Positions 1-60,519 of a stretch of DNA of 64,000 nt are shown piece after piece (the first letter of the stretch is position 1; each line of letters begins with the position of its first letter). The stretch comes from Cyanidioschyzon merolae. Its lineage: Eukaryota. The stretch lies in NCBI GenBank assembly GCA_000091205.1, contig AP006496.2; one strand, given 5' to 3'. The position numbers and the translations under genes are program-made. Under the pieces are notes generated by a model that was not told where the DNA came from, searched no databases, and worked only from the letters and a program-made list of their open reading frames with translations.

Positions 1-535
1 CTCCAGGAACGTCCTCGCCTACCGGCACAATGGAGTGTATTCGATTTCGAAAATAAGTGGATGCGCTGGGGTGCACACATCAGAACGTCGAAATGGAGGC
101 GAAAGTTCGAGGACTTCTTGAATTGATGAGTTCCACCACAGGTAACGGACACGTGGAGTGCGTGAACCGAGACTTGCACGCCACGAATTATATGAGGCGA
201 TGTGTTGTGCTGATGACGAGACTTAAAGAGCTGACGCCATCCAGCTTTGTGGAGCAGCCTCTCAGGCAGGAATTGCGCCTGGATGAACTGAAGCCGATAG
301 CAGGTGAGCGATCCAAAAAGGCTGGGTGGTGTCAGCACGAGGGTATCCATTTCATCCACATGACCGTAGAACATTTTGCGTTTGACTTACATACATAGGT
401 TCTATTCTGGAGTGACAGAAAGAGCTTGTGGTTGGCGATAACTCTATCCCAGTTCGTGGCAGACGTTATCTTCGGGCACCCGTGCTTGGTACGCGTCTTG
501 CGACGTTCTAGTTGATCTTGAAAGCGCTGCTTGCA
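1..535 (+). mobile_element. Copy C of the Fanzor/TnpB-like element; 3' portion only, truncated by the window start. It holds the C-terminal RuvC-III region and the conserved 3' tail.
   Basis: ORF 57..398 aligns to the C-termini of copies A and B (VEME...AKVRGLL...VNRDLHATNY versus VNRDFNAAINI; tail FVEQPLRQELRLDEL versus FMGQPLKVELYDTKL). The conserved tail motif ttgatcttgaaagcgctgcttg at 512-533 matches B 28219-28243. Confidence 0.6.
57..398 (+). pseudogene. Degenerate TnpB/Fanzor C-terminal remnant. RuvC-III has decayed to NRDLHATNY, and about 40 aa are deleted relative to copies A and B.
   Basis: Amino-acid alignment to copies A and B across the zinc-finger and RuvC-III region. Confidence 0.55.
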
Positions 536-587: not shown

Positions 588-790
588 CGTTCATACAGTG
601 CACGCATCGCTATGCATACGTTCATACAGTGCACACATCGCTATGCATACGTGTCCGTGCACGCATCGCTATGCATACGTTCATACAGTGCACGCATCGC
701 TATGCATACGTTCATACAGTGCACGCATCGCTATGCATACGTGTCCGTGCACGCATCGCTATGCATACGTGTCCGTGCACGCATCGCTGT
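588..790. repeat. Minisatellite of alternating 31-bp and 28-bp units (gcacgcatcgctatgcatacg + ttcatacagt or tgtccgt), about 7 copies.
   Basis: Direct reading: the unit starts at 600, 631, 659, 690, 721, 749 and 777. Confidence 0.85.
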
Positions 791-1044
791 TCGGCGCCCT
801 GCGTGCTCGCCCGAAATCGTCACTGCGCTGCCTTGGCGCGCACGCGGGGTCCGGAAGCGGCAGTGCGCAGCGCACCGTTTTGGCTCCTCTTCGGGAGCGC
901 GCTCTCGGCTACCAGTGCCGTTCTCTACCAAAAGTCATAGGGAAATAGGTGTGGTTGTTGATTTTGAAGAGGTTACCGAAGCAGTTGCAGTGAAAGAGCA
1001 CGTTGATTGGATATAACTTGTAGCAACGGGAAGCGCGCCTATGC

Positions 1045-4000
1045 ATGCAGTCAAGCGCTAGCGCCGCGGTGTGCGGTTCAGCAACCGTTGGGGATCCCAG
1101 TTCGCGGCGAATCAGTTTCATTCTTACACGAAGAGGATCCCTGGGACTTCAGGAACTCTGTACGGCGTGGGTAGGAACGGCACGCTCTATCCACGGAACG
1201 TGGATCTATCCTGACGGGAGCGGATCGAGCGTCACGGAGCGAGCCTCAGCGGACCGACGGAAAACCGGAGCGGTCAGCGAAAGTGCTGTTCACAGCAACG
1301 ACTGGTTTGAAGAAGCCACCCAGGTCACCCATACAATCGTCACTGAGCTTCTACCCGCGCGCTTTGAGATAGCACACGGCGCTCGCTTATTGTGTGCGAT
1401 AGCGACTGGCCACTGGATCCTGCGGGCATCATACCTGCGGGCATCCGCGAGTGCGGGCTGTTGGCTCGACAATGAGATCGACCATGAATGGGCAGCTTCA
1501 CTAGAGTCGCTGAGCGATGCAGAACGCAGCGTCGCGTCTGCCGCACGATGGTGGCGTGAGTCATTACAGAGCGGTCGGTGCAAACGCCTGTTGCAAGATT
1601 TGCGGGTTTATTTGCTCTGCCCAGCTGTCAACGGAGCATCTAATGAATCGCGGGGGAGGACGTGTGCCTCATGGATGGTCGCTGTTGCTTCCAATGCGCG
1701 CGCCGTTGCTGCCATTGTTCGGGCTACCGGTGCCGAGCTCTGCGGCGTCGGGTCAACCTGCACAGCGTCTGATCACTCGATCGATGTCGTTGTCGAAGTG
1801 TACAGCGAGAATGGGCAAAACAGAATTCCACCAAATACCAGTTGCCTTGAGATGCAACAAGGCCGATGGCTTAGCGCTCTGGATATTGTAGTGGGCCTCA
1901 TTGGCTGCGCTGACGAGCAGCTTCGCTTTGCTCAATTGCGAACGACTCGAAACATCCCAGGTTCGGAGAGTCATCATGCTACAAATAGTTGCAGATTCGG
2001 CTCTTCTGGCGGTGAGAATTCCACGTGCGTATCCGCGCTGGCATGGACGGAGACGGCGACTTCCACGAAGAACGAGGCGGTTCCGTCCAGTGACCCGTCG
2101 CCGTCTGCGGGTCGCCTGCGACAAAGTCCGGGTGAGCGGCAGGAATTGTCGGATGCGCCAGCGCCGGCGACCGTGCTTGCGGCTCAACGCGCTGAATGCC
2201 TCCAGCAGCGACCAAGCGGAGCGTTATCCGGCACGCTATCTCCAGATGGGAGCGTGCTCGAGTCAGCTTGCCATGATGATGATGCACTGGGAGAGGTACG
2301 GCACGGGGTCGGTGCACAGAGGCTCCCTTCAAACTCATTACTTTCGCAAGACGAGACGCATGCTGTCACTCTGAAGCATCCCGACACAACTGGCAACACC
2401 GGAATTTTTACATCATATGGCTCGACGCCCGTTGCTTCCAGCAACAACAGCAGCAGCGGCAGCTCTACCCGATCCGCTCGAATCGTGGCGACAAAATTCG
2501 CCGCGGCTCACGCTCTAGGTGAGTCAGAATCCCGAAGTAGCGGCGAGATTGCGCTGTTGCCTGCAGCAGATTCTGGGACTCTCACGGCACTCGAGGACGA
2601 GGCCCCCCTCGAGCAGCTGTCTGGCATTCGCCGGGACGGGATCACTCGGCAAGACCCAGACAACTCATGCAGCGCGTCGTTCACACGAGTCCTGGGTACG
2701 CTCAGCGAAGACAACCGCTCCTGCGCGCCGCTGAGCGACCACTCTCCGAGCGGGTCTATTGAGAACGCTTGCTGGCCACCGTACCGTCAGACTCCAGATG
2801 ATGCAGCTGCAGACGGGTCGGCAAGTCCCTTTGATGAGTTCGATCTCAAAGGCCTTTGGCAAGCGCGCGAACGAGCCACGGCTGCTTTGCCGGCGCACGG
2901 TACGCGGACGCTGTCGCCACGTAAGCGCCAACGTATTCATCAATCGATAGAAACGCACGACGGCACTTCACGCTGCACCACCAGAAGGGTTTTATTCGGC
3001 TCGATAGCGTCCCCGACGACGCCAGAGGGAGTGGCATCTCATTCAGTCGAAGCGCAGACAGCGGGAGCGTCTTCGCACCGGGCGCTTCCAGAGTCTCGAG
3101 CGCGCGTCGAAACTCGAGTGGAATCGCCCGAACGAATTCCTGTGGACAGCAAAGCGTCTCCGCGATCCTCGCTAGACTGTGATGATGTCTCCACAAGTTC
3201 CAGTCCGATGATGGCAAGTGTCTGCGGCAAGCGCATCAAGCATGAGCCATGTTCATGGCCAGAAACGCGCTCCCCTGGGACCACTCCAAAGACGGATACT
3301 CGCGTAACTGGCGCTTCCACCGCAACGAAATTGGAGACGGGTTCGATTTCCTCACCGGATGCCAAGTTCGGAACGTATGGCTCAACAGCGTGGGATGCGG
3401 TGCAACCGCTGCCCCGAACACACCTGGAGAAGAGAGTCTCGCCAGGGCCGCCACGGCGCCAAGCGCCCGCCCTGAGCCCGAAGTTCCACGTTGCAGCCTC
3501 TGATGCTCCAAGTGTCCTGAATCTTTCCCATTTGCTAGACCTGATCCAGGAATTCGAGAGCGCCGTTCAGCGTGATACGAACGAATGGCGACGTGCAGTT
3601 CTGACGCTTGGGTATTCACGAGCGACAAAAGCTCCGCTGTTTCTCCGGGTGGCGGCGCGGAACTTGCGCCGTCTTCGCTTGTTGATGGAGTCGGGTTGTG
3701 TGCGGGTGCCCATGTCGTACGGCAGACGACTGTGGTATGACAGCGGCGCTACAGACGCGCATCGACTGCAGGCAGCATCGTGGCTCTCGTTTGATGATGC
3801 AGCATGGTGCTTGCGTCGCTCGTCGCTGTTGCCGCCCAGGGATATGGGGCAATTCCGGGAGCGTCTCGTGCAGAGTGCCCGCATCCGGGCTCGCGGGCGC
3901 AGCGAGCTTCACCGCCTTGAACCTGTTCAGGCGATTGTCGGACTCGCTCGCGTTCCGCATCGACAACTATTGCGTCTGGCTCCGGATGCGCAACGACGCG

Positions 4001-11910: not shown

Positions 11911-12490
11911 TCTTCTCGCATGCAATAGATCGTGTTGCTAGATAGTTGCTCCTTATCAAAGAATGCGGGAAACGGATCCAAGTACTGAATAAAGTGTACT
12001 AGTCAAGGTGGACTTGCCAGTAACAGATCCTCTCTAACCCCAACGTGCTGACCTCTTTCTTCTCGCATGCAATAGATCGTGTTGCTAGATAGTTGCTCCT
12101 TATCAAAGAATGCTGGAAACGGATCCAAGTACTGAATAAAGTGTACTAGTCAAGGTGGACTTGCCAGTAACAGATCCTCTCTAACCCCAACGTGCTGACC
12201 TCTTTCTTCTCGCATGCAATAGATCGTGTTGCTAGATAGTTGCTCCTTATCAAAGAATGCTGGAAACGGATCCAAGTACTGAATAAAGTGTACTAGTCAA
12301 GGTGGACTTGCCAGTAACAGATCCTCTCTAACCCCAACGTGCTGACCTCTTTCTTCTCGCATGCAATAGATCGTGTTGCTAGATAGTTGCTCCTTATCAA
12401 AGAATGCTGGAAACGGATCCAAGTACTGAATAAAGTGTACTAGTCAAGGTGGACTTGCCAGTAACAGATCCTCTCTAACCCCAACGTCGA
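11911..12490. repeat. Intergenic satellite with a 146-147-bp unit, 4 tandem copies.
   Basis: The unit tctcgcatgcaatagatcgtgttgctagatagttgctccttatcaaagaatgctggaaacggatccaagtactgaataaagtgtactagtcaaggtggacttgccagtaacagatcctctctaaccccaacgtgctgacctctttctt repeats at 11914, 12061, 12207 and 12353. Confidence 0.9.
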
Positions 12491-16436: not shown

Positions 16437-16851
16437 CAGCTGCACGCGAACAACTGCAGGCGCAGGTCGAGCCGGTTGTGCGTTTCCGTGAGGACTCCCA
16501 TTGGGCGTTGCTGCGTGCTGCTCAGGAGGTTGCCCAAAACGACGCTCCTCATCAACACCGTCGTCACTGCTGCCGCTCGCCGCTGTACTAGCGTAACACG
16601 AACAGCGCCGACGCTTCGGAGCAACCACGCCCGCGGGCGCTCCGCTGACGCTCCAACGGTGCCCAGGTTGTAGGCGTTGCAAGGTACACACGACGAAAAC
16701 CATACCGGTGTTTACGCCAGAGTCGAGCGTCACGATGTGCAACTTTCAGCAACACTTATGCGCAGTAGATAGTACGTACGGGCGCCGCAGCCAAACGCCT
16801 TTCGAAAGTCGAACGACGTCGGGCGTGTACAGTAGCGGCGACCGGCGGCCT

Positions 16852-19189
16852 AGACGTAACGCTTCCAGCTGGTGTGCAGACGCCTCCCAGCGTTTCTCGG
16901 CGGGCCACGTACTATTTCTTCTAATTTCGTCTCATATACTTCTACTTTTCGAGATTGTCCAACAAAATTCCCTCTTGTCTACTCTGGAGGTCTGTTCTCC
17001 AGCACTGCCCATCTCCGGATATTGATAGCGGCGTTAAAGTCACGATTCACAAAATCCATACGTCTCCTGCAATCTCTGGTTGTACTTTCTGATGCAAGTA
17101 GTCCACGAACTTTCGCTCTCCTTTCAATTTGCTCTTCCGTCAGCGGTTCGTGCTTTGCTATTTCCGAACGGCTCGTTGGCACTTTTCCATCTCCACTGTC
17201 TGAAGTGTACAACCCATTTCATGGTGTGTATAGGACGTTCGGAACTCATGTACAGGTATCGTGAAGAAACGCCTTGCGCACTCTTTGTATGTTCTTGCCG
17301 TTGGAACTGGCGCAGTCCCTTTTTTCGACGCCGAGCACCCTGCTCTGTACGCTACTACGAGCCTCTGACTTTCATCCTCCTTCAGGGCGCTCAACTGATT
17401 GAAAAAATTCGCGAACGCCCGCTGCTTCCCACAATACAAGTTCATTCACAAACGAGCCCACCGGGGCTTGGTATACTCCTCCCACAGCGCCTCCCAATGA
17501 GCAGCGCGAACTTTCATGAATTTCCGAAAAGCTTCAAAGTCCGCTCCTCGGCTAGTCACCTCGCTCAAAGCTTCCATGTGATCCTTCACTCCTGAATTCC
17601 ATTTCTCGATTTTCTTCCTTGCATTCATTATACCGGATTCTCGATAGTATCTTGGTCTCGAGAACCTCAAAAGACGCATGTCTCTCTAACGAAAGTTACC
17701 ACCAGTACTATCTTCCGCACGCTTCGGTGCTGCGATGGTGATGATATTCGTATTCCCGGGGTCCGCGCCAACGACAAAGTCGTTATCTTGTACTTTCTGT
17801 GCCGCAGGATCCGCCTTCTTGTTTTCTTCATGCTTCGTCGCGCCAACGACAAAGTCGTTATCTTCCACTTTCTGGGTCGCAGGATCCTCCTCTTTCTTTT
17901 CTTCATGCTCCGCCGCGTCAACGACAATGTGGTTATCCTCCACCTCCTGCGTCGCAGGATCCTCCTCTTTCTTTTCTTCATGCTCCGCCGCGTCAACGAC
18001 AAAGTCGTTATCCTCCGTCTCCTGCGTAGCAGGGTGCGCCTCCTTCTCATCTTCATGCCTCGCCGCATCAACGACATGGTCGTTATCTTCCACCTCCTGC
18101 ATGAGAGGATCCTCCTCTTTGTTTTCTTCATCCTTCGTCATGGGCGCAGTCGAGGGCGGAATTGGACGATCTTTCTTCAACCGCCGATAGTGTATACACA
18201 TGGCTACTCCATCGGTTTCGATCAACCCAGTAAATACCTTTTGTTTGGTCTCTTTGAGACGTTTGAAATTGAAGATATTCTTCCAGTACGTCTCCCGGTT
18301 ATCACCGGAGAACTCCTTGTTGCTAACATTGAACTCCGGACAGATCTCCTTCATGATGCCATGAAGGATCCTGGAGTCGATACTCACAAAATGTGACTTG
18401 ATGTTGCACAACGGAACCACGTTGAACCGCTTACCCATTAGGAAAGCCTTCTGTCTCTCCCACTCTTCATTTTTCCTCACTCAGCTTCATCTCCGCCTTG
18501 CGTTCGAGTTCTCGATTCAGGAATACGAAATAGAGCAGGATGAGTTGATAGCATCTTTTTTCATCTTTTTTGAACTCTGATATTTTTTCTGTTGGATTCG
18601 CCAGCCCCATGACTGCACGGTGCTCTTGTATAACCGCACGGATTACAGAAGCCTCATTCGTGCTCTCGTTTGGCGCCTTCTTGTCGACAAATTCGACCTC
18701 ATCTTCATACTTTCGATCGTTCGTGATGCCATTGATAATCGCCCATATTCCTTTGCGAGACAGGCCCGGGTAGAGTGGAAACACGGTGCGTATTATGAAA
18801 CGTTCGAGGTTCATTGTCAAATGGTTCTTCAGGTTCGTGATGTGCTTCATCGCCCCGTAGCCGTAAATACCCCGGTCACCCTTGTATCGAGTACCGTTGA
18901 AGCTGTAAAAGGGATGTTTTTCGTGGGGGCCATGCACTAGCACATTTTCCCTCCGCGTTTTCTCTCCACCAAGCATCAGGTGTCGAATAAAGGTGATGTC
19001 GAAAAACTCGTCTGGAATCTCGACCGTTTCGATGTGCGTCACGTCTTTGTACATCTCCCTCGCCAAATGCATCAGCCCTGACGACGCCTTGACAATACTC
19101 TTGGAGTACGAGTCGACGCGTTTTTCGATAGCGTCTCGCAACTTTTCCCTGTACGGATCCTTGATATGGCCAAGAAGAAAGGCTCTCAT
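16852..19189 (-). pseudogene. Fanzor1-like (TnpB-like) RuvC nuclease gene, disrupted. Ruv[18 protein letters not shown], RuvC-II region IPVHEFRTSYTHHE, zinc finger, RuvC-III VNRDFNAAINI.
   Basis: Main ATG at 19189. One frameshift near KAEMKLSEEK/EWERQ. Nonsense TAG where B has CAG (GGNFR*RDMRLL). Frameshifts at PRWARL/MNLYCG and after MEKCQR. Nonsense TAG where B has TTG (RPPE*TRGNF). The coding tail ...RGNFVGQSRKVEVYETKLEEIVRGPPRNAGRRLHTSWKRYV* is conserved with B at the amino-acid level. Confidence 0.75.
17745..18125 (-). repeat. In-frame 75-bp coding tandem repeat, about 5 copies, encoding roughly [25 protein letters not shown], inside the Fanzor-like ORF just upstream of RuvC-I.
   Basis: Period 75 nt (for example 17877 and 17952). 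Copy B has about 2 units (27.16-27.26 kb). Confidence 0.85.
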
Positions 19190-19399
19190 CACCTTCTCGT
19201 CGTACAGTCGTCTTTCTTGCCGCCTTCGACGTAGGACCTCTCCCCTTCGGTTCTTTTTCTTCTCCTTTTCTTCTGGGCTCGGCACTGTTTTTCGTTTTTT
19301 CTGGCAGCCAGCGATACTGGGCCTCCAGGATCGTCGACTTGCTTTTTCATAGCTTTCCTTTTTCAGTTTTTTTAAATGAACCCGCTGTGAATGCTTCGG

Positions 19400-19406
19400 T
19401 TATATA
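19400..19406 (-). promoter_or_regulatory. Conserved TATATAA box about 50 bp upstream of the uORF ATG (19350) of element copy A.
   Basis: cgcagTATATAAccgaagc in A aligns to cgcggTATATAAcagaagc in B (25857-25863) within the conserved 5' end. Confidence 0.45.
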
Positions 19407-20799
19407 CTGCGAAAAAACACTTGGCCAGACTTGTTTGAGGGTTGAAACACCAATGAACTGAAAACTATATTTTTGTTCGACTCCGACGCAAATACAACTT
19501 TTACAGCTGAACAACACGCTCCTGGTCAGCATCGCGGTTCCTTTCAACGGCGGCATGTGCATCGCGTCAGTTGACTGCCTGATCTCCGAGATGCGTTCAT
19601 TAAGCGCAATGCGTCCATCGCACGAGACGCCACTCCAGTCGATGAAGGACACGTGTCCGACACCCCGCATTGGCACATGCGTGTTCGCATCGCATTGCAG
19701 CCAAACTAAAGTATCGTAGATAGGAAACTCACGTAGAACGATCTCTTGCTATAGACGCTGTCGCTGGTGCCGAAGCTACTGCCCATCGCAGTACCGCCTG
19801 GACATACATGGAAATGTTGGGACCTAACGCGATACCTCGTGATGCTTCTATCAAAAGCGTAGCGTTCTCTGCGGCTTACCGTTGTGTGGATGACGTATGC
19901 ATCACTCTTCTCACTAGGAATTTCGTTAGTTTTATTCATCGTAACCAAACTAGGTACGGTGGGATTCCTGAACACGGACATACGTTTAATGCCGATGCTT
20001 GTCACGCATGCTACACTGACGCTGGAATGAGGAACTGACCTGAATTGTGCTTCTATCCTGCGTCATAGGCTGGTACTGATGACCGTTCAAGTCATTTCCA
20101 TGCTGCTGTCGTTGTCTAACTTATGGTGCCTGCTTCGTCCTCCGGATCCGGTGATCTTGGCAGAGGCATAGCACACTCGACCGGCCCCCTGCTATCGGTT
20201 TCAGCTTCTCCTTGTTCACCTCTGGCCTGGGAGGTTCCCCCAGAAAGTTGGACCGCGTCAGCTCCGCCGGTCGCGCGTTCATCACCATTCATCATCTGAT
20301 ATTGATGGCGTTTTGTCTGAAACGCTCGTGATAGAGCTGAGGTCAAGAAGCGATCAATCTTGACCGACGCTATCAAACGAGCGGTACCAGAAGCTGAGGG
20401 CTGCAGCCGGCACCAGGTGCTCTGATGCCTACATGCTGGCCGTGAATAGTGCGTGACGAAGTCGCACAGCATGCCACGGTTTCCTAGTACGTAAACCAAG
20501 CACGTATTCGAAACGTTCGGGTTCAGTGTGATGACGAGTCGCCGCTACGGCATTCTGGGAAAATCATCCGAGTGCGCTATGGTTGTTCGAACATCGAGCA
20601 TCATCACGTGTATGGGTGCGTTTCACTGCACGAGTTGCAACGATCATCGAATCCACCATCATCCAAAAGTGACGAAAATTTACAAGCGTACCGGGCTCGC
20701 ACCTCCAGGTCAGGACGTGCCCACCAGCACGCAAACAAATTTCGTGCCCTGCTGTGCTTTCACCAAAAACGAAAGGAAACATGCGTTTCCTCGACCAGG

Positions 20800-24406: not shown

Positions 24407-25065
24407 TCAAGCACCAGCGCTGTAACAATGCTGGCTGGGATCCGAGCCCAAGATGACGTAGGTGTAAATTTCGTCGTTCAGCATTTGTGCGGTATACGAT
24501 GCGATAAACTTGTACCGACCAGAGGTCAGCGCTGAACGGAATACCCGTTCCATCTCTGGAACCACCAGCATTGCAGCTTCAAAGGCCTCCCGTCCAAAGA
24601 GGCCCTCGCCGCCGTATGCATACGGACTCGACCAGTTGAAATAGTGCGCTGGCAACTTTGTGGCATGCGCAGCGCCCATATAGTCGGTGCTGGTCCAGCC
24701 GCCCACGGCGAGCGCTGACTCGACAGCTGCCCGTCCGAGCGCACTGCAGTTGCCAGCGGCCACGTCTGCTATCGGACACTCCACCATGTTATCCACGACG
24801 TTCGCAGCACCAATGATCAGTCCCTTGTTCAGACACAGGTCATGATCAAGGTCTGCAAGCGCATTCATGATGGTAAAGTCGTATTGCGACACGTTCAGGG
24901 CCATAGCGTCGGTCTCGTTGATGTAGATGCCACCGAGCGCCCTGCTCGGCACCCGCAGGATACTCTCTTCGAGCGTCTCGAGGTTCAGCGGCGTAACCAC
25001 TGTCGCAGCACAACGAGACAAACATCCCGCAAGCCCCCACAGGCTAAGAAAAGCGAAAAGAAGCC
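24407..25065 (-). CDS. Secreted Cys-containing protein with a signal peptide and N-glycosylation sites; unknown family. Paralog of the gene at 30544..31191.
   Basis: Signal peptide MRAWLLFAFLSLWGLAGC. Shared C-terminal motif LGSDPSQHCY and overall about 40% identity with the paralog. ATG at 25065. Confidence 0.55.
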
Positions 25066-25856
25066 ACGCTCGCATATTAATCAGAACAGAGCCACGTTCC
25101 AGGAAAAACAGCAATGTCTCTATCGTGGGTGGTGCTGCATTGGGGATCAAGGCGCACCGCGTGTGCGTGCGTCTGTGCGCGGAGCGCCCTGCGGCGAACA
25201 GGCCCCGGTGCAGGCCCTGCGAGACGCCGCGGTGGCACCACCGGCGCACGCCTCGGGAGCCGGCACACTCGATCCGTGGCGATCGAACAGGCCCAGCGGC
25301 AGCGCCAAAATGGGCGTTCGGGACGTCGGCGGCGCCACCAGCATCAGCGATCGGCGCCAGATTAGGAAGCGATGCGTGCCGGCGCGCGCTGTTTCCGACG
25401 TTCCAGGCGTCGACGCGTCGATGTCGGTGGTGGTGGCTGCGGGCGCCTGCATCTCCACTTAGGTGAGGGCGGTACTGAGATGGGCAGGAGCGTCGGCACC
25501 AGCGACATAGCATAGAGCAGGAGTGCATTCTACGTGAATTTCCAATCTAGGACACCTGATTTCAGCTGCAGTGCGATGCGAACACGCATGTGCCAATGCG
25601 GCTTCGGACACGTGTGCTTCATCGATCGGAGCAGCGTCTCGTGCAGTGCACGCATCGCGCTCGGTGAGCGCACCCCGGAGATCAGGCAGTCCATTGACGC
25701 GACGCGTATGTCGCCAATGAGGGGAAACGTGATCTTGATCAGTAACGTGTAGCCGCAATGTAAAATTGTAATTTCATTGAGTTCGTATCCAGGTATAGTT
25801 TTTATTTCAATTGTGCTTCACCCTTAAAACAAGCGTAGTCAAGTGTTTTCTCGCGG

Positions 25857-25863
25857 TATATAA
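25857..25863 (+). promoter_or_regulatory. Conserved TATATAA box 56 bp upstream of the uORF ATG (25919) of element copy B.
   Basis: Aligned with the copy A TATA box within the conserved 5' end. Confidence 0.45.
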
Positions 25864-26079
25864 CAGAAGCGTTCAAAGAACGTTCTTTTTCAAAAAAAAA
25901 TCTAAAAAAAGGAAAGTTATGAAAAAGCAAGTCGACGATCCTGGAGGCCCAGTGTCGCTGGCTGCCAGAAAAAACGAAAAACAGTGCCGTGCCCAGAAGA
26001 AAAGGAGAAGAAAAAGAACCGAAGGGGAGAGGTCCTACGTCGAAGGCGGCAAGAAAGACGACTGTACGACGAGAAGGTG

Positions 26080-28177
26080 ATGAGAGCCTTTCTTCTTGGC
26101 CATATCAGGGATCCGTACAGGGAAAAGTTGCGAGACGCTATCGAAAAACGCGTCGACTCGTACCCCAAGAGTATTGTCAAGGCGTCGTCAGGGCTCATGC
26201 ATTTGGCGAGGGAGATGTATCGCGACGTGACGCACATCGAAACGGTCGAGCTTCCGGACGAGTTTTTCGACATCACCTTTATTCGACACCTGATGCTTGG
26301 CACAGGGGAAGCGCGGAGGGAAAATGTGCTAGTGCATGGCCCCCACGAAAAACATCCCTTTTACAGCTTCCAGGGTAATCGATACAGCGATGACGGAAAT
26401 ATTTACACATGCGGGGTAATGAAGTACATCACGAACCCGAAGAACCATTTTACAGTGAACCTCGAACGTTTCATGATACGCGCCGTGTTTCCACTCTACC
26501 CGGGCCTGTCTCGCAAAGAAATACGGGCGATTATCAATGGCATCACGAAGGATCGTAAGCATAAAGATGAGGTCGAATTCGTCGACAAGAAGCCGTCACG
26601 CAGGAGCACGAATGAGGATTCTGTAATCCGTGCGGTTGTACAAGAGCACCGTGCGGTACTGGGGCTGGCGAGTCCAACGGAAAAGATATCAGATTTAAAA
26701 AAAGATAAGGAAAGATACTATCGCCTCGTCCCGCGATATTTTGTGTTTCTGGACCGAGAGCTCGAACGCAAGGCAGAGGTGAAGCTGAATGGGAAAAATG
26801 ACGAGTGGGAGAGACGGAGGGCTTTCCTAATGGGAAGCGCTTCAACCTCGTTCCAATGTGCAACATCAAGTCACATTTTGTGAGTATCGACTCCAGGATC
26901 CTTCATGGCATCATCAGGGAGATCTGTCCGGAGTTCGATATAAGGGAGACAGAGTTCACCGGTGAAAACCGGGAGACATACTGGAAGAATATCTTCAATT
27001 TCAAACGTCTCAAAGTGACCAAACAAAAGGTATTTACTGGGTTGATCGAAACCGATGGAGTAGCCATGTGTATACACTATCAGCGTTTGAAGAAAGATCG
27101 TCCTGGTCCGCCCTCGGCGAACCACGAAGATGAGACGGAGGCGGTTCCTGCCACGTAGAAAGTGCAGGAAAACGACTTTGTCGTTGGTGCGGCGAAGCAT
27201 AAAGATGAGGAGGAGGAGGATCCTGCGACGCATGAGGTGGAGGATAACGACTTTGTGGTAGGCGTGAACCCCGGGAACACGAATATCATAACCATCGCTG
27301 TATCCAAGCGTGCAGAAGATGGTACTGACGGCAACTTGCGTCAGAAGACATGCGACTTTTGAGGTGCTCGAGAGCAAAATGCTATCGAGAATCCGGTATC
27401 ATGAATGCAAGGAAGAAAATTGAGACATGGAATGCAGTAATGAAGGATCACCCGGAAGCTTTGAGCGAGGTGACGAGCCGCGGCGGGGACTTTAACGCTT
27501 TTCTGAAAATCATGAAACTTCGCGTTGCTCGTTGGGATGCGCTGTGGGAGGAGTATACAAAGCCTCGGTGGGCTCGTCAACGTATGAAACTATACTGTGG
27601 TAAGCGGCGCGCGTTCGCGAATTTTTTCAATCAGTTGAGCGCCCTCAAAGAGGATGAAAGTCAGAGGCTCGTAGTAGCATACGGAGCAGGGCGCTGGAAG
27701 ATCCAAAAAAGGACTACGCCAGCTCCATCGACAAGAACGTATAAGGAGTGTGCACGGCGTTTTGCTACAATACCTGTTGATGAGTTCCGAACATCGTATA
27801 CACACCATGAACGGTGATGTACGCTCCAGAGAGTCGAGATGAAAAAGCGCCAGAGGAGCCCTGAGGATATAAAAAAGTACGGAGCGCAAACGGAAGAGCA
27901 AATGGAAAGGAAAGCGAAAGTTCGTGGACTGATCGCATTGGCGAGTACAATCAATGGCAAGAAACGTATCGAATTCGTGAACCGAGACTTTAACGCCGCC
28001 ATCAATAGAAGGAGATGTGCGGCGATGGAGACGAGACCTGCGGAGTTGACAAGAGAGAATTTTATGGGGCAACCTCTCAAGGTGGAATTATACGATACGA
28101 AGCTGAAGTCAGTAGTAGGTGGCCGGTCGAGAAAGACGGGGAGGCGTCTGCATTTCAGTTGGAGACGTCTCGTCTAG
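26080..28177 (+). pseudogene. Fanzor1-like (TnpB-like) RuvC nuclease gene, disrupted. RuvC-I has mutated to GVNPG (D to N). RuvC-II IPVDEFRTS, RuvC-III VNRDFNAAINRRRC.
   Basis: Main ATG at 26080, overlapping the stop of a 53-codon basic uORF (25919..26080, TGATG). A 1-bp indel at AFLMG/KRFNLV. Nonsense TAG at VPAT*KVQ where A has CAG. A 1-bp deletion at RQKT/MRLL. TGA at HHER*C where A has ATGGGT. Elsewhere continuous where A is broken. Confidence 0.75.
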
Positions 28178-28724
28178 GACGAGTTCGCCGCCACTGCTGT
28201 ACACCGCTGGCGGCAGCGTTGTTCTTTTGGAAAGCGTTTGTTGTTCGTGGTGCTCTTGCCGTTTGTCTCATGCGCGTTTGAAGGTGCGAATTTAGCAAGT
28301 CGAGTTGGGCTCGTCACGGGTGTGTGTGCACCGCAGGCGCGGGCAACGTGGTACACGACGCTCGTACCTCCACGGATGCTTCCAAGTGAACCACTGGTGC
28401 CGGACTGGTGTTCCTCTCAGAGATAGTGGTTTAACCGTTTCCGTTTCCCCGCGGTTGCTGAGCGCAGAAGGGACAGCTTTGCTGTACGAATGGACGAATA
28501 TCGCTTCGAGGTGCACTGTCCAGCATACCGGGCATAGAGGCTGATAGATCGGGCGCTTTGGTATCGGTGCGTTGCGAAACCGCGCAAGGTTCAAGAAGCA
28601 TGCAGTCCGCTTTACTTTCTGGATTTTTGGCACCAGTGCCCATATACGGTTGCTCGAACCGAATACAGTGCTTTCGCTAGGCGCTAGCGGCAACGGAGCT
28701 CAATGATCATGCGCTGCTCCAGTG

Positions 28725-29156: not shown

Positions 29157-30543
29157 CAGCGCTCGGTACGTGTCCTCGACTGGTACAGATGGCTCTTTTC
29201 GATGTTTTCATCAGGCGCCGCGCCCGGTGCTGTGCCCAGTGATCACGGCTCGCGTCAGACGATTCCCTCGGCGAGTACTCTGTCCACCGCACATGCAAGC
29301 GAAGGCTGTTCCACTCGATACGGGATTAGCGGCACCCGATATCGTCCGTAATCAAACAAGTGCGGGAAGGGTAATCCAGTTTAGAGAAAAGTTGAGAACA
29401 TTCGATCCGTCTCCGTTCCCTTCGCGCACAGCAATGACGCACTCTCTAAAGGGAGCGGTCGCTTCGATGACGCAAGTCGCACTCTGAATCCAAGACGATT
29501 TTCCATGCGAACACACGGGACGAGAGCCCGCTGGAGCAGTTCCCGCAAAATGTTTCGTACAGGTGTGAGATTTCTTTTCGTAGACGACCGCTAAAAGAGG
29601 CGGATTTGTGTTTTTCGAACGGAATCGATAAATTGACATGACAAGTTCAGTGGTCTTTTGGCAAGAGTTTTTGATCAAGAGGTCATGGTGCGACGTCGAG
29701 GATGCTTCTGCGTCATTCCAGCGGGGCGAGTTGCCGCGCGCACGAGTTTCCATGCAGGATATTGATCGAAAACTTGAAGAATACATGGTTTGAGCGTGGG
29801 GCACGTAGGGATCGGAAAAGGACGGAGGAACACAGGTATGCATTGGATAACGATATCGGTTATTTCACGAACCCTCGCTCGAGGGCGTCGCAAATCATCG
29901 CGATTCAACGGACGTCACGAATTCCAGCTCTGTACTGTATCGAAAGAGCCTCCCAAAGTAAATATGGCCGAGAATCACTGACCTACATATCCATCCGTAC
30001 GCCCGTATTGTTGCGCTTAGAATACCGCGGTTGTAGACCCAAGAACGCGTTCGGAATAGAGTCGGAAAGCAGGAGCAGAGTGAGCAGTTCAGTGCTCCAG
30101 TTGAGAGCCTGGCACGCGTATGAGCTCGACGCGCGCATCCATCGCCTGCCGCCGTGCACGGCAATTTGCCAGCGGCGGAAATCATCGCGCCATCGACAGG
30201 AGCCACTGTGCGCGCTGAACGACGTCGCCTTGCTGTGGGCGCGCCTCGACCCGAACGCGTCGGTGTTTGCTTCACAAAATCGCGTGCAGCAAAGGCATCG
30301 AAAGACGGGGATTCGGAGCGGCTCATGAGCGCGCGCACCATGGAATGCGTGACACGTGTCCCACAGCGGCGCGGTGACGTGCACGTGCCGAATTTGGCAG
30401 CGCTGTGTGTTGTATTGGGATGTGGATGCGGTGCGAAACGCTCGGTGTGTATCGACACGAACGCATTTGCATGTTTTTTTGCGACTGTAGCAGATACTTC
30501 AAGGCTAACCTGTGTCTTCGACTACAAGTCGTTTATTATTCCG

Positions 30544-31191
30544 ATGGTTTCGAACAGGTCTGCGTTTAGGCTAGCCGTGCTCGCTCTTGCGCTGATACTC
30601 TTTACTATGATCTGGGACGCTGCTGTCTATCGGGGAACCTCAGCGCTGCCGCTGAGCACCCAGGTACGCGCTGCAGAGAACAGAACGCACCACCTCCCCG
30701 ATGCCGTTGCAGCGGCGCTCAACTACACGCAGTTCGAGTACACGCTCGCAAACTCACTGTATAAAATCAACCCGCATATATGCCTGAACTATGCCTTGTC
30801 AGTTGCGGCAGCGAACCTGGCGGATCTCCTCACCTACTGCACGCCAGATCAGGTTGGGAATAACAGCTGTAGCGCTCTGACGCCCGGTGCTATCGCTCGG
30901 ACGCTGCTCGCTGCGGGATGGACCAGCACGAATATCCAGCTCGTGGACCTCGCAGCCAAGGTGCCAGCAAGGTATTTCAATTGGTCGACCAGTGACGGGC
31001 TCTCGGGTCTGCAAGCGTACCACGTCGGTCTTCAAGCTGCACCATACGTTGTGAACCAACTGCGGCCTTACCTACATAGTGGACAACTCAACCTGGTTGG
31101 GGTAGGTGCAGTGGCTCTCCGCACAGACTACGTGTACGCGATGGTTGCCCTGGGCGGGGATCCATCGCAACACTGCTACGAAGCGAGCTAG
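30544..31191 (+). CDS. Secreted or membrane-anchored Cys-containing protein; paralog of 24407..25065.
   Basis: N-terminal hydrophobic segment AFRLAVLALALILFTMIW. C-terminus LGGDPSQHCYEAS. ATG at 30544. Confidence 0.5.
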   Translation: MVSNRSAFRLAVLALALILFTMIWDAAVYRGTSALPLSTQVRAAENRTHHLPDAVAAALNYTQFEYTLANSLYKINPHICLNYALSVAAANLADLLTYCTPDQVGNNSCSALTPGAIARTLLAAGWTSTNIQLVDLAAKVPARYFNWSTSDGLSGLQAYHVGLQAAPYVVNQLRPYLHSGQLNLVGVGAVALRTDYVYAMVALGGDPSQHCYEAS

Positions 31192-36720: not shown

Positions 36721-37258
36721 TATATTCTATTGAGCTCCTGGATAGCGTCCGTGTCCAGCGAGCGCTCTAGGTCGATGGAGGCGGCCATAACGATGTTCGC
36801 GCCTCAGATTGCTCAATTGGCGAAACGTTTACCAAGGCCAGCGTTCTCCGATTGTGTGCTTTTCTTTTTTTTTTGTTTTTCTTCAGTGCGCGATGACGTA
36901 TCTATCAGGTCCCCTACTTCCCAGTTGCATTACACATACTTCTTCTCGGATGTACTGGTCGTTCATCGCAATGCATGCAACGCATGCGCGATGTCGCACG
37001 TGGAATCCGCCGAACAGCCATACAGTGCGCTGGCGCGCATTGATCGCACTGCCTCCGTCTATATTGTCGCAAAACATTTAATATTATATAGTTCTGTACC
37101 GTTGGTGCAAGAGGTCCATGGAAGCGCGCAGCGCAGTGCGCCATCCCCAGCGAAAAGCGACTACATCTTCCAGACGATAGCTGAATGACCTCGCCTGCTG
37201 GACGGTATTTTCGGACTGCAGCGTCAGCCACAGAGACGAACGCGCCACGCACACCATC

Positions 37259-58692: not shown

Positions 58693-60519
58693 ACGGGCCC
58701 GAGATCACTGCGTCAGTGTGATGCATCTGGGAACGGGAAACAGCGCAGACGGTTGGAGCAGGTGCTGGTGTTTCTGTCCGGCTGGGGTGTACTCGATGGG
58801 TCAAGTGTGCATCGGGTGCACAGCCGCTGCGTGCTTGTTTCTGATAGTGCGTGAAGGACACTGGGGATTTTGCTCGCGCCGATGCCCACTGCTATATATG
58901 GCAAAGCGTTCTGTCTCCGTGATGCATTGGTATCAGCGGCAGAGGCGCCGTTGCGGATGCAGCAGGACAAGCATTCGGCGAACGATAGAACGTATGAAGC
59001 GACCAGTATATCCGAGAAGAAGTTTGGGATATGCAACTTGGGAGCAGGGCGTAGAACGTTGGTTGCTTCACCGCGTGCCGATCATAAGCGCACAGGCGGG
59101 GAACGTGGGTCTGTGTTCAGGTTTTTTCCATGAAAAAGAGAACTGGATTATCTCGGCTGTGCATGCAGGTTGGGGATTGGGCTGGCACTGAGGGCGGCGG
59201 CGGCGGCGGCTTCTCGTGCATCTCGGGGCGTCGGAGTGCCAGAAGAGCATTTGTTCAGGCTCGAGCGTTGCCCAGGAGGATATACTGCAGCGATCGCGCA
59301 GCATCCGTGCCCGACTAGGATTCAGGTTCTGCCAAGCACCAAGTCCTGGTCGAAGAACGACCGACACCCGCGTGCCTCATCATTGTTCGGATCGTGCGAG
59401 CAACCCTTCGTTGTAGTGACGCGAGGCAGGGCGGCGCGAGACAGGCCCAGAGGGCAGTCTCGGGTTCCAGAAGGGCCACCCTCCGAAGACCATTCTCTGC
59501 AAAAGCCGCCACTTGACGTAACAGTCATTCGCATGCGTCCAGCGTTCGAGGCAGGCATTTGCGTCGCTCGGGGCGCGTACTCGATGCCGGTACGCTTCGC
59601 ATGCCGACGGATTCTCTAATGGCTGAGGTGCGGGTCATCGTTGGCAGATTCCAGTCCGTCGCCGAAGCCGAGAGTCGCTTGTCGTTTGCCTCATTCCGTG
59701 TCGAAAACGGGCGCCGAACCACATGTACCACAAGATGACGCCCAAGTCCAGTCGATTAGGCCAATGCCCCGGCACGATCACTACGGATACACCAACTGCA
59801 TTCATGTCATGCGTCTGGTGCCGCAGGCAGCAGGCACTAGCTACAAACGGGTCCTCGCCCGCATCCAGGGCTAGAGACTTGACGCCAAATGCTCGCGACG
59901 CCACGCGTTCCAGTTCCGTGCCTCTCATCCGATGGCACTTGGATGCACGCGCATCTGAGAATAGGGTAACGCTGAGTCGCAAACGGGTGTTCCGCAGCGG
60001 ATGCTGGGCTCCGTGGGAAACGCGTCGCACGTCCGACAGGGTCAGGAGCCTACGCAGACTCGACATCGCCTGGTGATCAGAGACCGCGACCTCGGATCGA
60101 TGTACAGAGCTCCGGAGCCGTTCACGTAACGAAAGACAAATCCTCCTCTCTTTGAGGCCATCAAAGAAAAGGCACTCCAAAGCGGATTGTCATCCATCCT
60201 GGGATATGATTGCAGAGGAACCCGTCTCTTCTGGTTGCATGGAAAAAGGTCAGGTGCACGGGCTTGCGTCATGGTAGCGATCGCGTCCGGTACATGGTGC
60301 CGCACCGCGTTGCGCGAATGGAGTAGAGACGGGTCGATATTTATCGACTCGTGCGTCAGTGTGGATTTTCCTCCCTGCACTTGTTTCATCATGAACAATA
60401 TCGTGCGCCACAAGTCCTCTATTGAATGGAACAGCGTGCGTTTGCGTGTCTAGCGGACAGATAACTTGGCCAGGGCATCGCCCAGAGCGAGCCCCTGATC
60501 GTAGGCGGAGGCATCAGGC

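What the first reader, a model, noticed from the sequence alone, without database searches (positions are those of the whole stretch)
25570..26082. Conserved element 5' end with a TATA box and a basic uORF whose stop overlaps the nuclease ATG (TGATG)
A and B share about 350 bp of 5' end that includes TATATAA about 50 bp upstream of a 53-codon ORF (MKKQVDDPGGPVSLAARKNEKQCRAQKKRRRKRTEGERSYVEGGKKDDCTTRR). Its TGA overlaps the ATG of the main nuclease ORF as gTGATGa. This holds in both copies (B 25919-26082, A 19350-19187). The peptide is strongly basic and NLS-like. The arrangement suggests termination-reinitiation coupling, or a +1 frameshift fusing an NLS peptide to the nuclease. In copy A, an upstream reading frame ends in ctATGAaa, where the uORF start overlaps a preceding stop.
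Basis: seen in the sequence. Interest (0 to 1): 0.6.

Follow-up and report, generated by a model that had tools for sequence, protein, structure and literature searches.

The report
Broken start of Fanzor transposon gene
The "upstream ORF" is the real beginning of a known red-algal transposon nuclease gene (Fanzor1, family CMe-1A), cut off from the rest by loss of one A in a run of A's, in two decayed copies, so it is an ordinary pseudogene feature and not a translational control device.

Summary
Copy A has the same arrangement on the minus strand. The interpretation does not hold.

Both copies belong to the published Fanzor1 family CMe-1A of Cyanidioschyzon merolae (Bao & Jurka 2013). They match consensus positions ~650-3169 at 84-87% identity. 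In that consensus the "uORF" ATG is the start codon of one 734-aa ORF (MEKEVEDPGGPVSPAAGKKRKTVPSPEE...YDEMVVKACLL).

The window copies lack one A in the tract that encodes the KKRK motif (A7 to A6, at 25969 and 19300). The first ~17 codons are therefore real N-terminus. The rest of the "uORF" is out-of-frame read-through.

The "main ATG" is GTG (Val) in 45 of 61 unique copies. TGATG occurs only at these two loci.

Across 53 unique copies the junction is in frame in 17, at -1 in 20 and at +1 in 16, which marks a poly-A indel hotspot. No RNA structure follows the slippery A AAA AAC.

Both copies carry further private frameshifts and stops. None of 33 near-full-length copies is intact. This is a known, ordinary feature of low interest.

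The parts
25450..28236 (+). Copy B of the element. 25656-28236 is the CMe-1A family core (consensus 648-3169). 25450-25655 is a different 5' module shared with copy A, which replaces the TE-N2_CMe-like first ~650 bp of the published consensus.
   Evidence: blastn to the CMe-1A consensus, 83.5-87.4% identity, ending at the last consensus base. A/B alignment.
16796..19816 (-). Copy A of the element, inverted relative to B. 16796-19595 matches consensus 661-3169. 19596-19816 is the 5' module shared with B. Five other loci share similarity with copy A up to about 20175, so the subfamily 5' end may lie further out.
25857..25863 (+). TATATAA, 62 nt upstream of the start ATG (copy A: 19406-19400). 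It is the majority state in the 52 unique copies aligned (family context AGTATATAACA). The published C. merolae consensus has TTTATAG here.
   Evidence: Promoter activity not tested.
25919..25968 (+). True start codon and first ~17 codons of the Fanzor1 ORF (MKKQVDDPGGPVSLAAR), still in their original frame. The ATG is kept in 35 of 52 unique copies.
   Evidence: Consensus protein MEKEVEDPGGPVSPAAG.... In-frame copies L017, L005, L006. ATG count.
25969..25981 (+). Two poly-A tracts, A6-CG-A5, where the consensus has A7-CG-A5 (AAA AAA CGA AAA = KKRK). One A is missing, and this splits the ORF. The sequence reads A AAA AAC in the upstream frame. Copy A equivalent: 19300-19288.
25975..26080 (+). 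Out-of-frame tail of the 'uORF' (...EKQCRAQKKRRRKRTEGERSYVEGGKKDDCTTRR*). The same bases read in the nuclease frame give RKTVPCPEEKEKKKNRRGEVLRRRRQERRLYDEKV, which matches the consensus.
26078..26082 (+). TGATG. These bases lie within the codons GTG ATG (Val-Met) of the nuclease frame. The consensus reads GTG GTG AAA (VVK), so the TGA is an off-frame stop and the ATG is a private Val-to-Met change. Copy A: 19191-19187.
   Evidence: GTG in 45 of 61 unique copies; TGATG only in winA, winB (+L007) and L008
25975..28177 (+). Remainder of the Fanzor1 coding region in copy B. It is broken by private lesions: 1-nt deletions at 26832 and 27345, TAG at 27156-27158 (inside a 63-nt repeat insertion), and TGA at 27815-27817. 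The RuvC-I Asp codon is mutated to Asn (27267-27269). DEFRTS is at 27779-27796 and VNRDFNAAI at 27977-28003.
16979..19294 (-). Remainder of the Fanzor1 coding region in copy A. It is broken by private lesions: a 2-nt deletion at 18474, a 1-nt deletion at 17174, TAG at 17688, TGA at 17448 and TAG at 16981. It also has a 300-nt expansion of the 75-nt internal tandem repeat (17763-18137).

Best explanation
The window holds two inverted, decayed copies of CMe-1A, a ~3-kb non-autonomous transposable-element family of cyanidiophycean red algae. The family encodes a single Fanzor1 protein, the eukaryotic TnpB-like RNA-guided nuclease.

In the functional ancestor, the ATG at 25919 starts one continuous ORF of about 734 aa. 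Its disordered, basic N-terminus carries an NLS-like KKRK motif encoded by a poly-A tract (AAA AAA CGA AAA).

In both window copies that tract has lost one A (A7 to A6). Ribosomes starting at the true ATG would therefore run out of frame after about 17 codons. They would translate purine-rich sequence into a spurious basic tail and stop at the first off-frame TGA. That TGA lies in the Val-Val/Met-Lys codons of the real frame.

The apparent 'nuclease ATG' is an internal Val codon that mutated to ATG in this lineage. So the uORF/TGATG arrangement is a by-product of a homopolymer deletion in pseudogenes. The two neighbouring copies probably share it through local gene conversion.

What is shown:
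- family identity;
- the single-ORF ancestral state;
- the position of the deletion;
- heterogeneity of the junction across copies;
- the decay of both copies.

What is inferred:
- NLS function of the N-terminus, by analogy with tested Fanzor N-termini;
- a promoter role for the TATA-like motif;
- gene conversion.
For: 1. **Family identity.** blastn of the published CMe-1A consensus (3169 bp, from the supplement of PMC3627910) matches window 25656-28236 and 19595-16796 at 84-87% identity, right to the last consensus base. The repaired copy-B protein is 74.8% identical to the CMe-1 consensus protein over its full length.
2. **Single ancestral ORF.** The consensus ORF (positions 906-3110) starts MEKEVEDPGGPVSPAAGKKRKTVPSPEEQEK...YDEMVVKACLLGHIKD. 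That is the uORF N-part plus the nuclease in one frame. Copies L017, L005/L028, L006/L071, L014 and L016, and proteins P0014, P0041 and P0044, are in frame.
3. **The deletion.** The consensus junction is GGA AAA AAA CGA AAA ACA GTG, against the window's AGA AAA AA- CGA AAA ACA GTG. This 1-nt deletion, at consensus 956 / window 25969 and 19300, is the only ORF lesion shared by A and B.
4. **Variable tracts.** Tract lengths vary among copies: (6,5), (6,6), (7,6), (8,6), (10,6), (9,7). They also vary among sequences that are >=97.5% identical and come from different samples: (7,9), (7,8), (7,7). Junction phase among 53 unique copies is 17 in frame, 20 at -1 and 16 at +1, indistinguishable from uniform (p = 0.78).
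5. **The 'main ATG'.** The codon at that position is GTG in 45 of 61 unique copies. TGATG occurs only in winA, winB/L007 and L008.
6. **Decay.** Each window copy has 2-3 further private frameshifts and 1-3 stops. None of 33 near-full-length unique copies is intact; the mean is 1.7 frame changes and 4.4 stops.
7. **Fold.** A structure model of an intact relative (P0045) matches only Fanzor1 structures significantly: SpuFz, GtFz and PpFz, E from 1.6e-9 to 2.8e-6.
8. **Literature.** N-terminal NLSs are documented for Fanzors; 21 of 22 tested N-termini were functional (PMC10530073).
9. **Homogenised tract.** A-B identity is 93-99% across 25954-26352, with 9-15 shared derived changes per 100 nt, against 72-89% in most 100-nt windows elsewhere.
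Against: - The deletion leaves a canonical -1 slippery heptamer (A AAA AAC) in the correct phase, and the -1 frame is the nuclease frame. Some read-through to full-length protein cannot be excluded from sequence alone.
- The -1 state with the same tract lengths or nearly the same (d = 149) recurs in several diverged copies (L004/L048, L019, L036-L038). L004/L048 has an otherwise almost intact 752-codon frame.
- Sequence-only searches (Pfam, PDB) did not link the protein to TnpB/Fanzor. The structural link was made on a 39%-identical relative with a medium-quality model (pLDDT 64.7).
- No expression or TSS data are available.
Confidence: 0.9

Rival explanations
1. Programmed recoding: -1 ribosomal frameshifting at A AAA AAC (25969-25975), or transcriptional slippage on the A-tract, restores the full-length NLS-Fanzor from A6-type copies. 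On this view the split is a regulatory feature that sets a low nuclease level.
For: The heptamer A AAA AAC is in the correct zero-frame phase. The -1 frame is the nuclease frame and is open from 25906. The d = 149 state recurs in several copies, including L004/L048, whose downstream frame is nearly intact.
Against: - There is no stable structure downstream: MFE -19.2 kcal/mol against a shuffle mean of -19.35, z = 0.05.
- The junction phase is evenly spread over 0, -1 and +1 among unique copies.
- The published consensus and many copies are simply in frame.
- The heptamer is an automatic by-product of shortening A7 to A6.
- Both window copies are dead anyway because of later frameshifts and stops.
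Confidence: 0.05
2. A genuine regulatory uORF: a small basic peptide is translated, and ribosomes terminate and reinitiate at the overlapping TGATG to make an N-terminally shorter nuclease.
For: The stop-start overlap is present in both window copies, and in the same loci from other samples.
Against: - The overlap is confined to these two loci, which are homogenised in this segment.
- The ATG is Val (GTG) in 45 of 61 copies.
- The nuclease frame upstream of that ATG still encodes conserved family sequence (RKTVP.PEEKE...RRRRQERRLYDE), so the ORF did not evolve to start there.
- The uORF tail has no counterpart in in-frame copies.
Confidence: 0.02
3. Assembly or sequencing artefact: the missing A is a homopolymer error, and the real loci are in frame.
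For: Near-identical sequences (>=97.5%) from different metagenome assemblies differ by single A's in these tracts: L017/L027/L039, L014/L025, L053/L057.
Against: - The A6-CG-A5 state of both window loci is reproduced in independent assemblies from other samples (L007, L008).
- The tract is short (6 nt).
- Even if it were corrected, both copies remain broken by other lesions.
Confidence: 0.04

Closest known systems
CMe-1A / CMe-1 Fanzor1 family of Cyanidioschyzon merolae (Bao & Jurka 2013, Mob DNA 4:12; PMC3627910)
   Same: - DNA is 84-87% identical to the consensus over ~2.5 kb, up to the exact 3' terminus.
- The protein is 75% identical over its full length.
- Copy length (~3 kb), lack of TIRs and divergence from the consensus (~80-87%) match, and there are many copies: 144 confirmed stretches in the metagenome scan, against ~150 copies reported.
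- The start codon and N-terminus are the same (M.K.V.DPGG...KKRKTVPSPEE).
   Different: - Copies A and B lack the first ~650 bp of the consensus (the TE-N2_CMe-like module) and carry another 5' module.
- The host is an environmental cyanidiophyte, not shown to be C. merolae 10D.
- The TATA-like motif reads TATATAA here and TTTATAG in the consensus.
- Both copies are pseudogenes.
Fanzor1 RNA-guided nucleases with solved structures (SpuFz1 8GKH/9CEZ, GtFz1 9CER, PpFz1 9CF1)
   Same: - Fold-level match of the family (model of relative P0045): TM 0.4-0.5, E down to 1.6e-9.
- RuvC motifs are present: D (DPGNTN), E (DEFRTS) and D (NRDFNAAIN).
- The N-terminus is basic and disordered.
   Different: - Only 11-16% sequence identity.
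- The zinc-finger segment has His-His/Cys-Cys rather than four Cys.
- Neither ωRNA nor activity was examined here.
Programmed -1 frameshift or transcriptional slippage sites in mobile elements (e.g. A AAA AAG in the IS3 family and dnaX; A AAA AAC in retroviruses)
   Same: A slippery A-rich heptamer lies in the correct phase between two overlapping frames of a transposon gene.
   Different: There is no stimulatory structure. The arrangement is not conserved in the family, and the ancestral state is a single frame.

Membership tests
CMe-1A transposable element (Fanzor1-bearing, Cyanidioschyzon) | Nucleotide similarity to the published consensus along the element, including its terminus | tested here: met
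   Consensus 648-3169 matches window 25656-28236, and 661-3169 matches 19595-16796, at 83.5-87.4% identity.
CMe-1A transposable element (Fanzor1-bearing, Cyanidioschyzon) | 5' 635 bp identical to TE-N2_CMe | tested here: not met
   No match to consensus 1-647 at either copy. A and B share a different 5' module. Other loci (e.g. L005) do carry the TE-N2-like module. This points to a 5'-variant subfamily.
CMe-1A transposable element (Fanzor1-bearing, Cyanidioschyzon) | Single ORF encoding the CMe-1 protein (734 aa) | tested here: met
   After repair of the listed lesions, the copy-B protein aligns 1-753 to CMe-1 1-734 at 74.8% identity. As they stand, both copies are pseudogenes.
Fanzor/TnpB superfamily | Motif D-X(125,275)-[TS][TS]-X-X-[C4 zinc finger]-X(5,50)-RD (Bao & Jurka 2013) | tested here: inconclusive
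   In CMe-1: D431, TS606-607 (spacing 174) and RD671-672 are present. The intervening segment, TSYTHHELGCTLQRVEMEKC..., has 2 His and 2 Cys, not an obvious C4. In copy B the first Asp is mutated to Asn.
Fanzor/TnpB superfamily | Fanzor1 fold (REC plus split RuvC) | tested here: met
   Foldseek of the P0045 model: the top 7 hits are all Fanzor1 structures, E from 1.6e-9 to 2.8e-6, probability 1.00. The next hits have E >= 0.5. Model quality is moderate (pLDDT 64.7).
Fanzor/TnpB superfamily | Significant sequence match to Pfam or PDB TnpB/Fanzor entries | tested here: not met
   No PDB hit at E <= 1 with the family profile. Only sub-threshold Cas12f1-like TNB hits (best E = 0.15) in 3 of 10 members.
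Fanzor/TnpB superfamily | ωRNA encoded at or overlapping the 3' end of the ORF | not tested
   The 3' end (about 28100-28236) was not analysed for structure or covariation.
Programmed -1 ribosomal frameshift site | Slippery heptamer X XXY YYZ in the zero frame, with the -1 frame open | tested here: met
   A AAA AAC at 25969-25975. The nuclease frame is open from 25906.
Programmed -1 ribosomal frameshift site | Downstream stimulatory RNA structure | tested here: not met
   The fold of 25969-26090 is no better than shuffled sequence (z = 0.05).
Programmed -1 ribosomal frameshift site | Conservation of the two-frame arrangement among related copies | tested here: not met
   Junction phases are 17 (in frame), 20 (-1) and 16 (+1) among 53 unique copies. 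The consensus is in frame.
Regulatory uORF with termination-reinitiation | Conserved separate uORF, conserved stop-start overlap and conserved main AUG | tested here: not met
   TGATG occurs only in winA, winB/L007 and L008. The codon is GTG in 45 of 61 copies. The uORF start is the family's ORF start.

The most novel reading that the evidence does not exclude
The Lys-coding poly-A tracts at the NLS act as a heritable or co-translational switch. Tract-length changes, together with ribosomal or transcriptional slippage on A6-A10, would toggle or throttle production of the nuclear-targeted Fanzor nuclease from individual copies. That would be a eukaryotic analogue of phase variation or IS-element recoding. 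It would explain why a nearly intact copy (L004/L048) sits in the -1 state, and why near-identical sequences of what looks like the same locus differ in tract length between samples.
Probability: 0.05. Interest if true: 0.6.

Novelty: already known. Interest (0 to 1): 0.12.

Why it matters
It matters mainly as a correction. These two loci should be annotated as decayed CMe-1A Fanzor1 copies whose ORF starts at 25919 / 19350. They are not a nuclease gene with a regulatory uORF.

Two modest points may be useful to people mining Fanzors:
- The N-terminal NLS-like KKRK of this family is encoded by a poly-A tract that is a strong indel hotspot. ORF callers therefore routinely truncate the N-terminus; for example, P0001 was called from an internal GTG.
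- Neighbouring copies can homogenise their 5' coding ends.

Neither point changes what is known about Fanzor biology.

Tried and rejected
- **Pfam on single ORF pieces, the repaired protein and relatives:** no significant family.
- **Profile search of PDB sequences:** nothing at E <= 1. The family link had to come from structure and from the literature supplement.
- **Exact look-up of the 270-aa 'main ORF':** not on record.
- **First motif regex for DPGG:** too strict, and it missed most copies. It was replaced by a fuzzy nucleotide anchor.
- **A full multiple alignment of all loci:** unusable because of one mis-anchored locus.
- **Introns as the cause of the frame changes in the nuclease ORF:** considered and rejected. 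Each break is a private 1-2-nt indel or point stop relative to the other copy and to the consensus.
- **A trypanosomatid host:** considered at first (intronless genes, GC ~57%) and rejected. The best named PEPCK relative is Cyanidium caldarium, and the element is a Cyanidioschyzon family.
- **The PEPCK homology search:** gave no close named organism.
- **The 5' end of the element:** could not be fixed to one position. Similarity end-points fall into several classes: ~19595-19612, ~19550-19564, 19816 and ~20175 in copy-A coordinates.
Full report
**1. Observation**

- Copy B (+ strand): TATATAA at 25857-25863, and an ATG-initiated 53-codon ORF at 25919-26080. Its TGA shares a base with an ATG at 26080-26082.
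- Copy A (- strand): the same arrangement at 19406-19400, 19350-19189 and 19191-19187.
- Repeat finding and alignment show two inverted copies of a ~2.8-3.0-kb element, about 16796-19816 (-) and 25450-28236 (+). They are 70-99% identical depending on the segment.

**2. What the element is**

- The window is eukaryotic. It has Avl9/DENN, thioredoxin, PEPCK and an ABCG transporter on long intron-free ORFs at about 57% GC.
- The same host genes occur on JGI metagenome contigs.
- The closest named PEPCK is from the red alga Cyanidium caldarium, at 67% identity.
- The long ORF carries the motifs DPGNTN, DEFRTS and NRDFNAAIN. A homology search returned 53 relatives, almost all from metagenomes.
- Sequence-based family searches were negative.
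- An AlphaFold model of the intact relative P0045 (pLDDT 64.7) matched only Fanzor1 structures significantly: SpuFz, GtFz and PpFz, with E from 1.6e-9 to 2.8e-6.
- Bao & Jurka (2013, PMC3627910) describe a Fanzor1 family in Cyanidioschyzon merolae called CMe-1A: ~3 kb, ~150 copies, each ~80% identical to the consensus, no TIRs. Their supplementary files hold the consensus DNA and protein.
- The consensus aligns to copy B (consensus 648-3169 against 25656-28236) and to copy A (661-3169 against 19595-16796) at 84-87% identity, ending on the last consensus base.
- The repaired copy-B protein is 74.8% identical to CMe-1 over its full length.
- The first ~650 bp of the consensus (the TE-N2_CMe module) is replaced in A and B by another module.

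**3. What the 'uORF' is**

- Proteins P0014, P0041 and P0044, and loci L017, L005/L028, L006/L071, L014 and L016, show the same single frame.
- At the junction the consensus reads GGA AAA AAA CGA AAA ACA GTG. Both window copies read AGA AAA AA- CGA AAA ACA GTG.
- One A of an A7 tract is missing, at consensus position 956 and window positions 25969 and 19300.
- Upstream of the tract, the 'uORF' frame is the true frame. That frame is open from 25906 and still encodes RKTVPCPEEKEKKKNRRGEVLRRRRQERRLYDEKV.
- The basic tail of the 'uORF' is therefore out-of-frame translation of a purine-rich stretch that is basic in both frames.
- The TGA is an off-frame stop inside the Val-Val-Lys codons (GTG GTG AAA in the consensus). 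The ATG is a private Val-to-Met change: the codon is GTG in 45 of 61 unique copies, and TGATG is seen only in winA, winB/L007 and L008.

**4. Mutation or programmed event?**

I collected 80 further loci with one metagenome scan. For each I measured the distance from the DPGG codons to the nuclease frame, then removed duplicates at 97.5% identity.
- Among 53 unique copies the junction is in frame in 17, at -1 in 20 and at +1 in 16. This is indistinguishable from a uniform distribution (p = 0.78).
- The variation lies in two adjacent A-tracts, whose lengths range over (6,5), (6,6), (7,6), (8,6), (10,6) and (9,7). They differ even between near-identical (>=97.5%) sequences of what looks like the same locus from different samples: L017/L027/L039 have (7,9), (7,8) and (7,7).
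- The deletion does leave a canonical slippery heptamer, A AAA AAC, in the correct phase.
- However, the 122 nt downstream fold no better than shuffled sequence (z = 0.05), and the two-frame arrangement is not conserved.
- Both window copies carry further, private lesions. B has frameshifts at 26832 and 27345, stops at 27156 and 27815, and RuvC-I Asp changed to Asn. A has a 2-nt deletion at 18474, a frameshift at 17174, and stops at 17688, 17448 and 16981.
- None of 33 near-full-length unique copies is intact. The mean is 1.7 frame changes and 4.4 stops per copy.
- The A-tract deletion is the only lesion shared by A and B. It lies in a tract (25954-26352) where A and B are 93-99% identical and share 9-15 derived changes per 100 nt. 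Further 3', they are usually closer to the consensus than to each other. This suggests local gene conversion between the two copies, which lie 6 kb apart.

**5. The rest of the 5' end**

- TATATAA is the commonest state among 52 unique copies (context AGTATATAACA) and lies 62 nt upstream of the start ATG.
- Its columns are no better conserved than neighbouring columns, and the C. merolae consensus reads TTTATAG.
- A promoter role is plausible but untested.
- The start ATG is retained in 35 of 52 copies.
- The upstream frame in copy A that ends in ctATGAaa is open only in A.
- The family-wide part of the leader starts about 265 nt upstream of the ATG (consensus ~648). Further upstream, the copies fall into classes with different 5' modules. 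Bao & Jurka describe 5'-variable subfamilies for another Fanzor1 family (MCi-2; Figure 8 legend) and the TE-N2_CMe relationship for CMe-1A.

**6. Comparison with what is known, and verdict**

- N-terminal disordered NLS segments are a documented Fanzor feature. About 60% of ORFs have a predicted NLS, and 21 of 22 tested N-termini were functional (PMC10530073).
- The KKRK motif of CMe-1 fits that picture, but its function was not tested here.
- The element is a member of a described family. The single-ORF structure is in the published consensus.
- The split seen in the window is a homopolymer deletion in pseudogenes. The finding is real as sequence but ordinary in meaning.
- The only reading with some novelty is that the poly-A tracts serve as a slippage or phase switch for nuclease expression. 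It is not excluded, but it has no positive support beyond the heptamer. I give it about 5%.

Noticed in passing
window 25954-26352 against 19315-18917: The two inverted copies are 93-99% identical here and share 9-15 derived changes per 100 nt. Elsewhere most 100-nt windows are 72-89% identical, and further 3' each copy is usually closer to the family consensus than to the other copy. This looks like local gene conversion between copies 6 kb apart. The same loci in other samples (L007, L008) carry swapped variants (VPCPEE/VPSPEE, HIRD/HIKD).
   Followed up: partly
window 17763-18137 (copy A) and 27126-27188 (copy B): There is a 75-nt (25-aa, acidic: ..[23 protein letters not shown]..) tandem repeat inside the Fanzor ORF, just upstream of the RuvC-I motif. 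Its copy number varies: +300 nt in A and +63 nt in B relative to the consensus. Some relatives (P0008, P0021, P0040) have even more units.
   Followed up: partly
loci L017/L027/L039, L014/L025, L053/L057: Sequences >=97.5% identical, apparently the same locus in different metagenome samples, differ by single A's in the two poly-A tracts. This is either population polymorphism or homopolymer assembly error; the data here cannot say which.
   Followed up: partly
loci L007-L086 (family-wide): In-frame stop codons (mean 4.4 per copy) clearly outnumber frame changes (mean 1.7). Some copies have up to 8-12 stops with few frameshifts (L042, L043/L046, L045). This hints at a transition-biased decay process. 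The mutation spectrum was not examined.
   Followed up: no
window 58870-59041 (-), 36913-36963 (+), 90-339 (+): These are further short fragments related to the CMe-1A consensus. The first two match the TE-N2_CMe-like 5' module (consensus 91-258 at 77% and 84-134 at 88%). The third matches the 3' part of the Fanzor ORF (consensus 2835-3087 at 70%).
   Followed up: no
window 24407-25528 (-) and 30154-31191 (+): Two paralogous ORFs (373 and 345 aa, with similar C-termini ...LG(S/G)DPSQHCY...) have no Pfam match and flank copy B in opposite orientations. The first one's predicted N-terminus runs into the 5' module of copy B, so its start is probably mis-called.
   Followed up: no
locus L004 4001-6259 (= L048): This is the best-preserved copy found: a 752-codon frame called from an internal GTG (P0001). 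It has the same -1 junction state, an upstream ATG-initiated N-terminal piece, and a premature end after ...RENFIG. It illustrates how gene callers truncate the N-terminus of this family.
   Followed up: partly
window 12000-12487: A perfect tandem repeat, three 100%-identical overlapping copies with a period of 147 nt, lies just upstream of the Avl9-like ORF.
   Followed up: no
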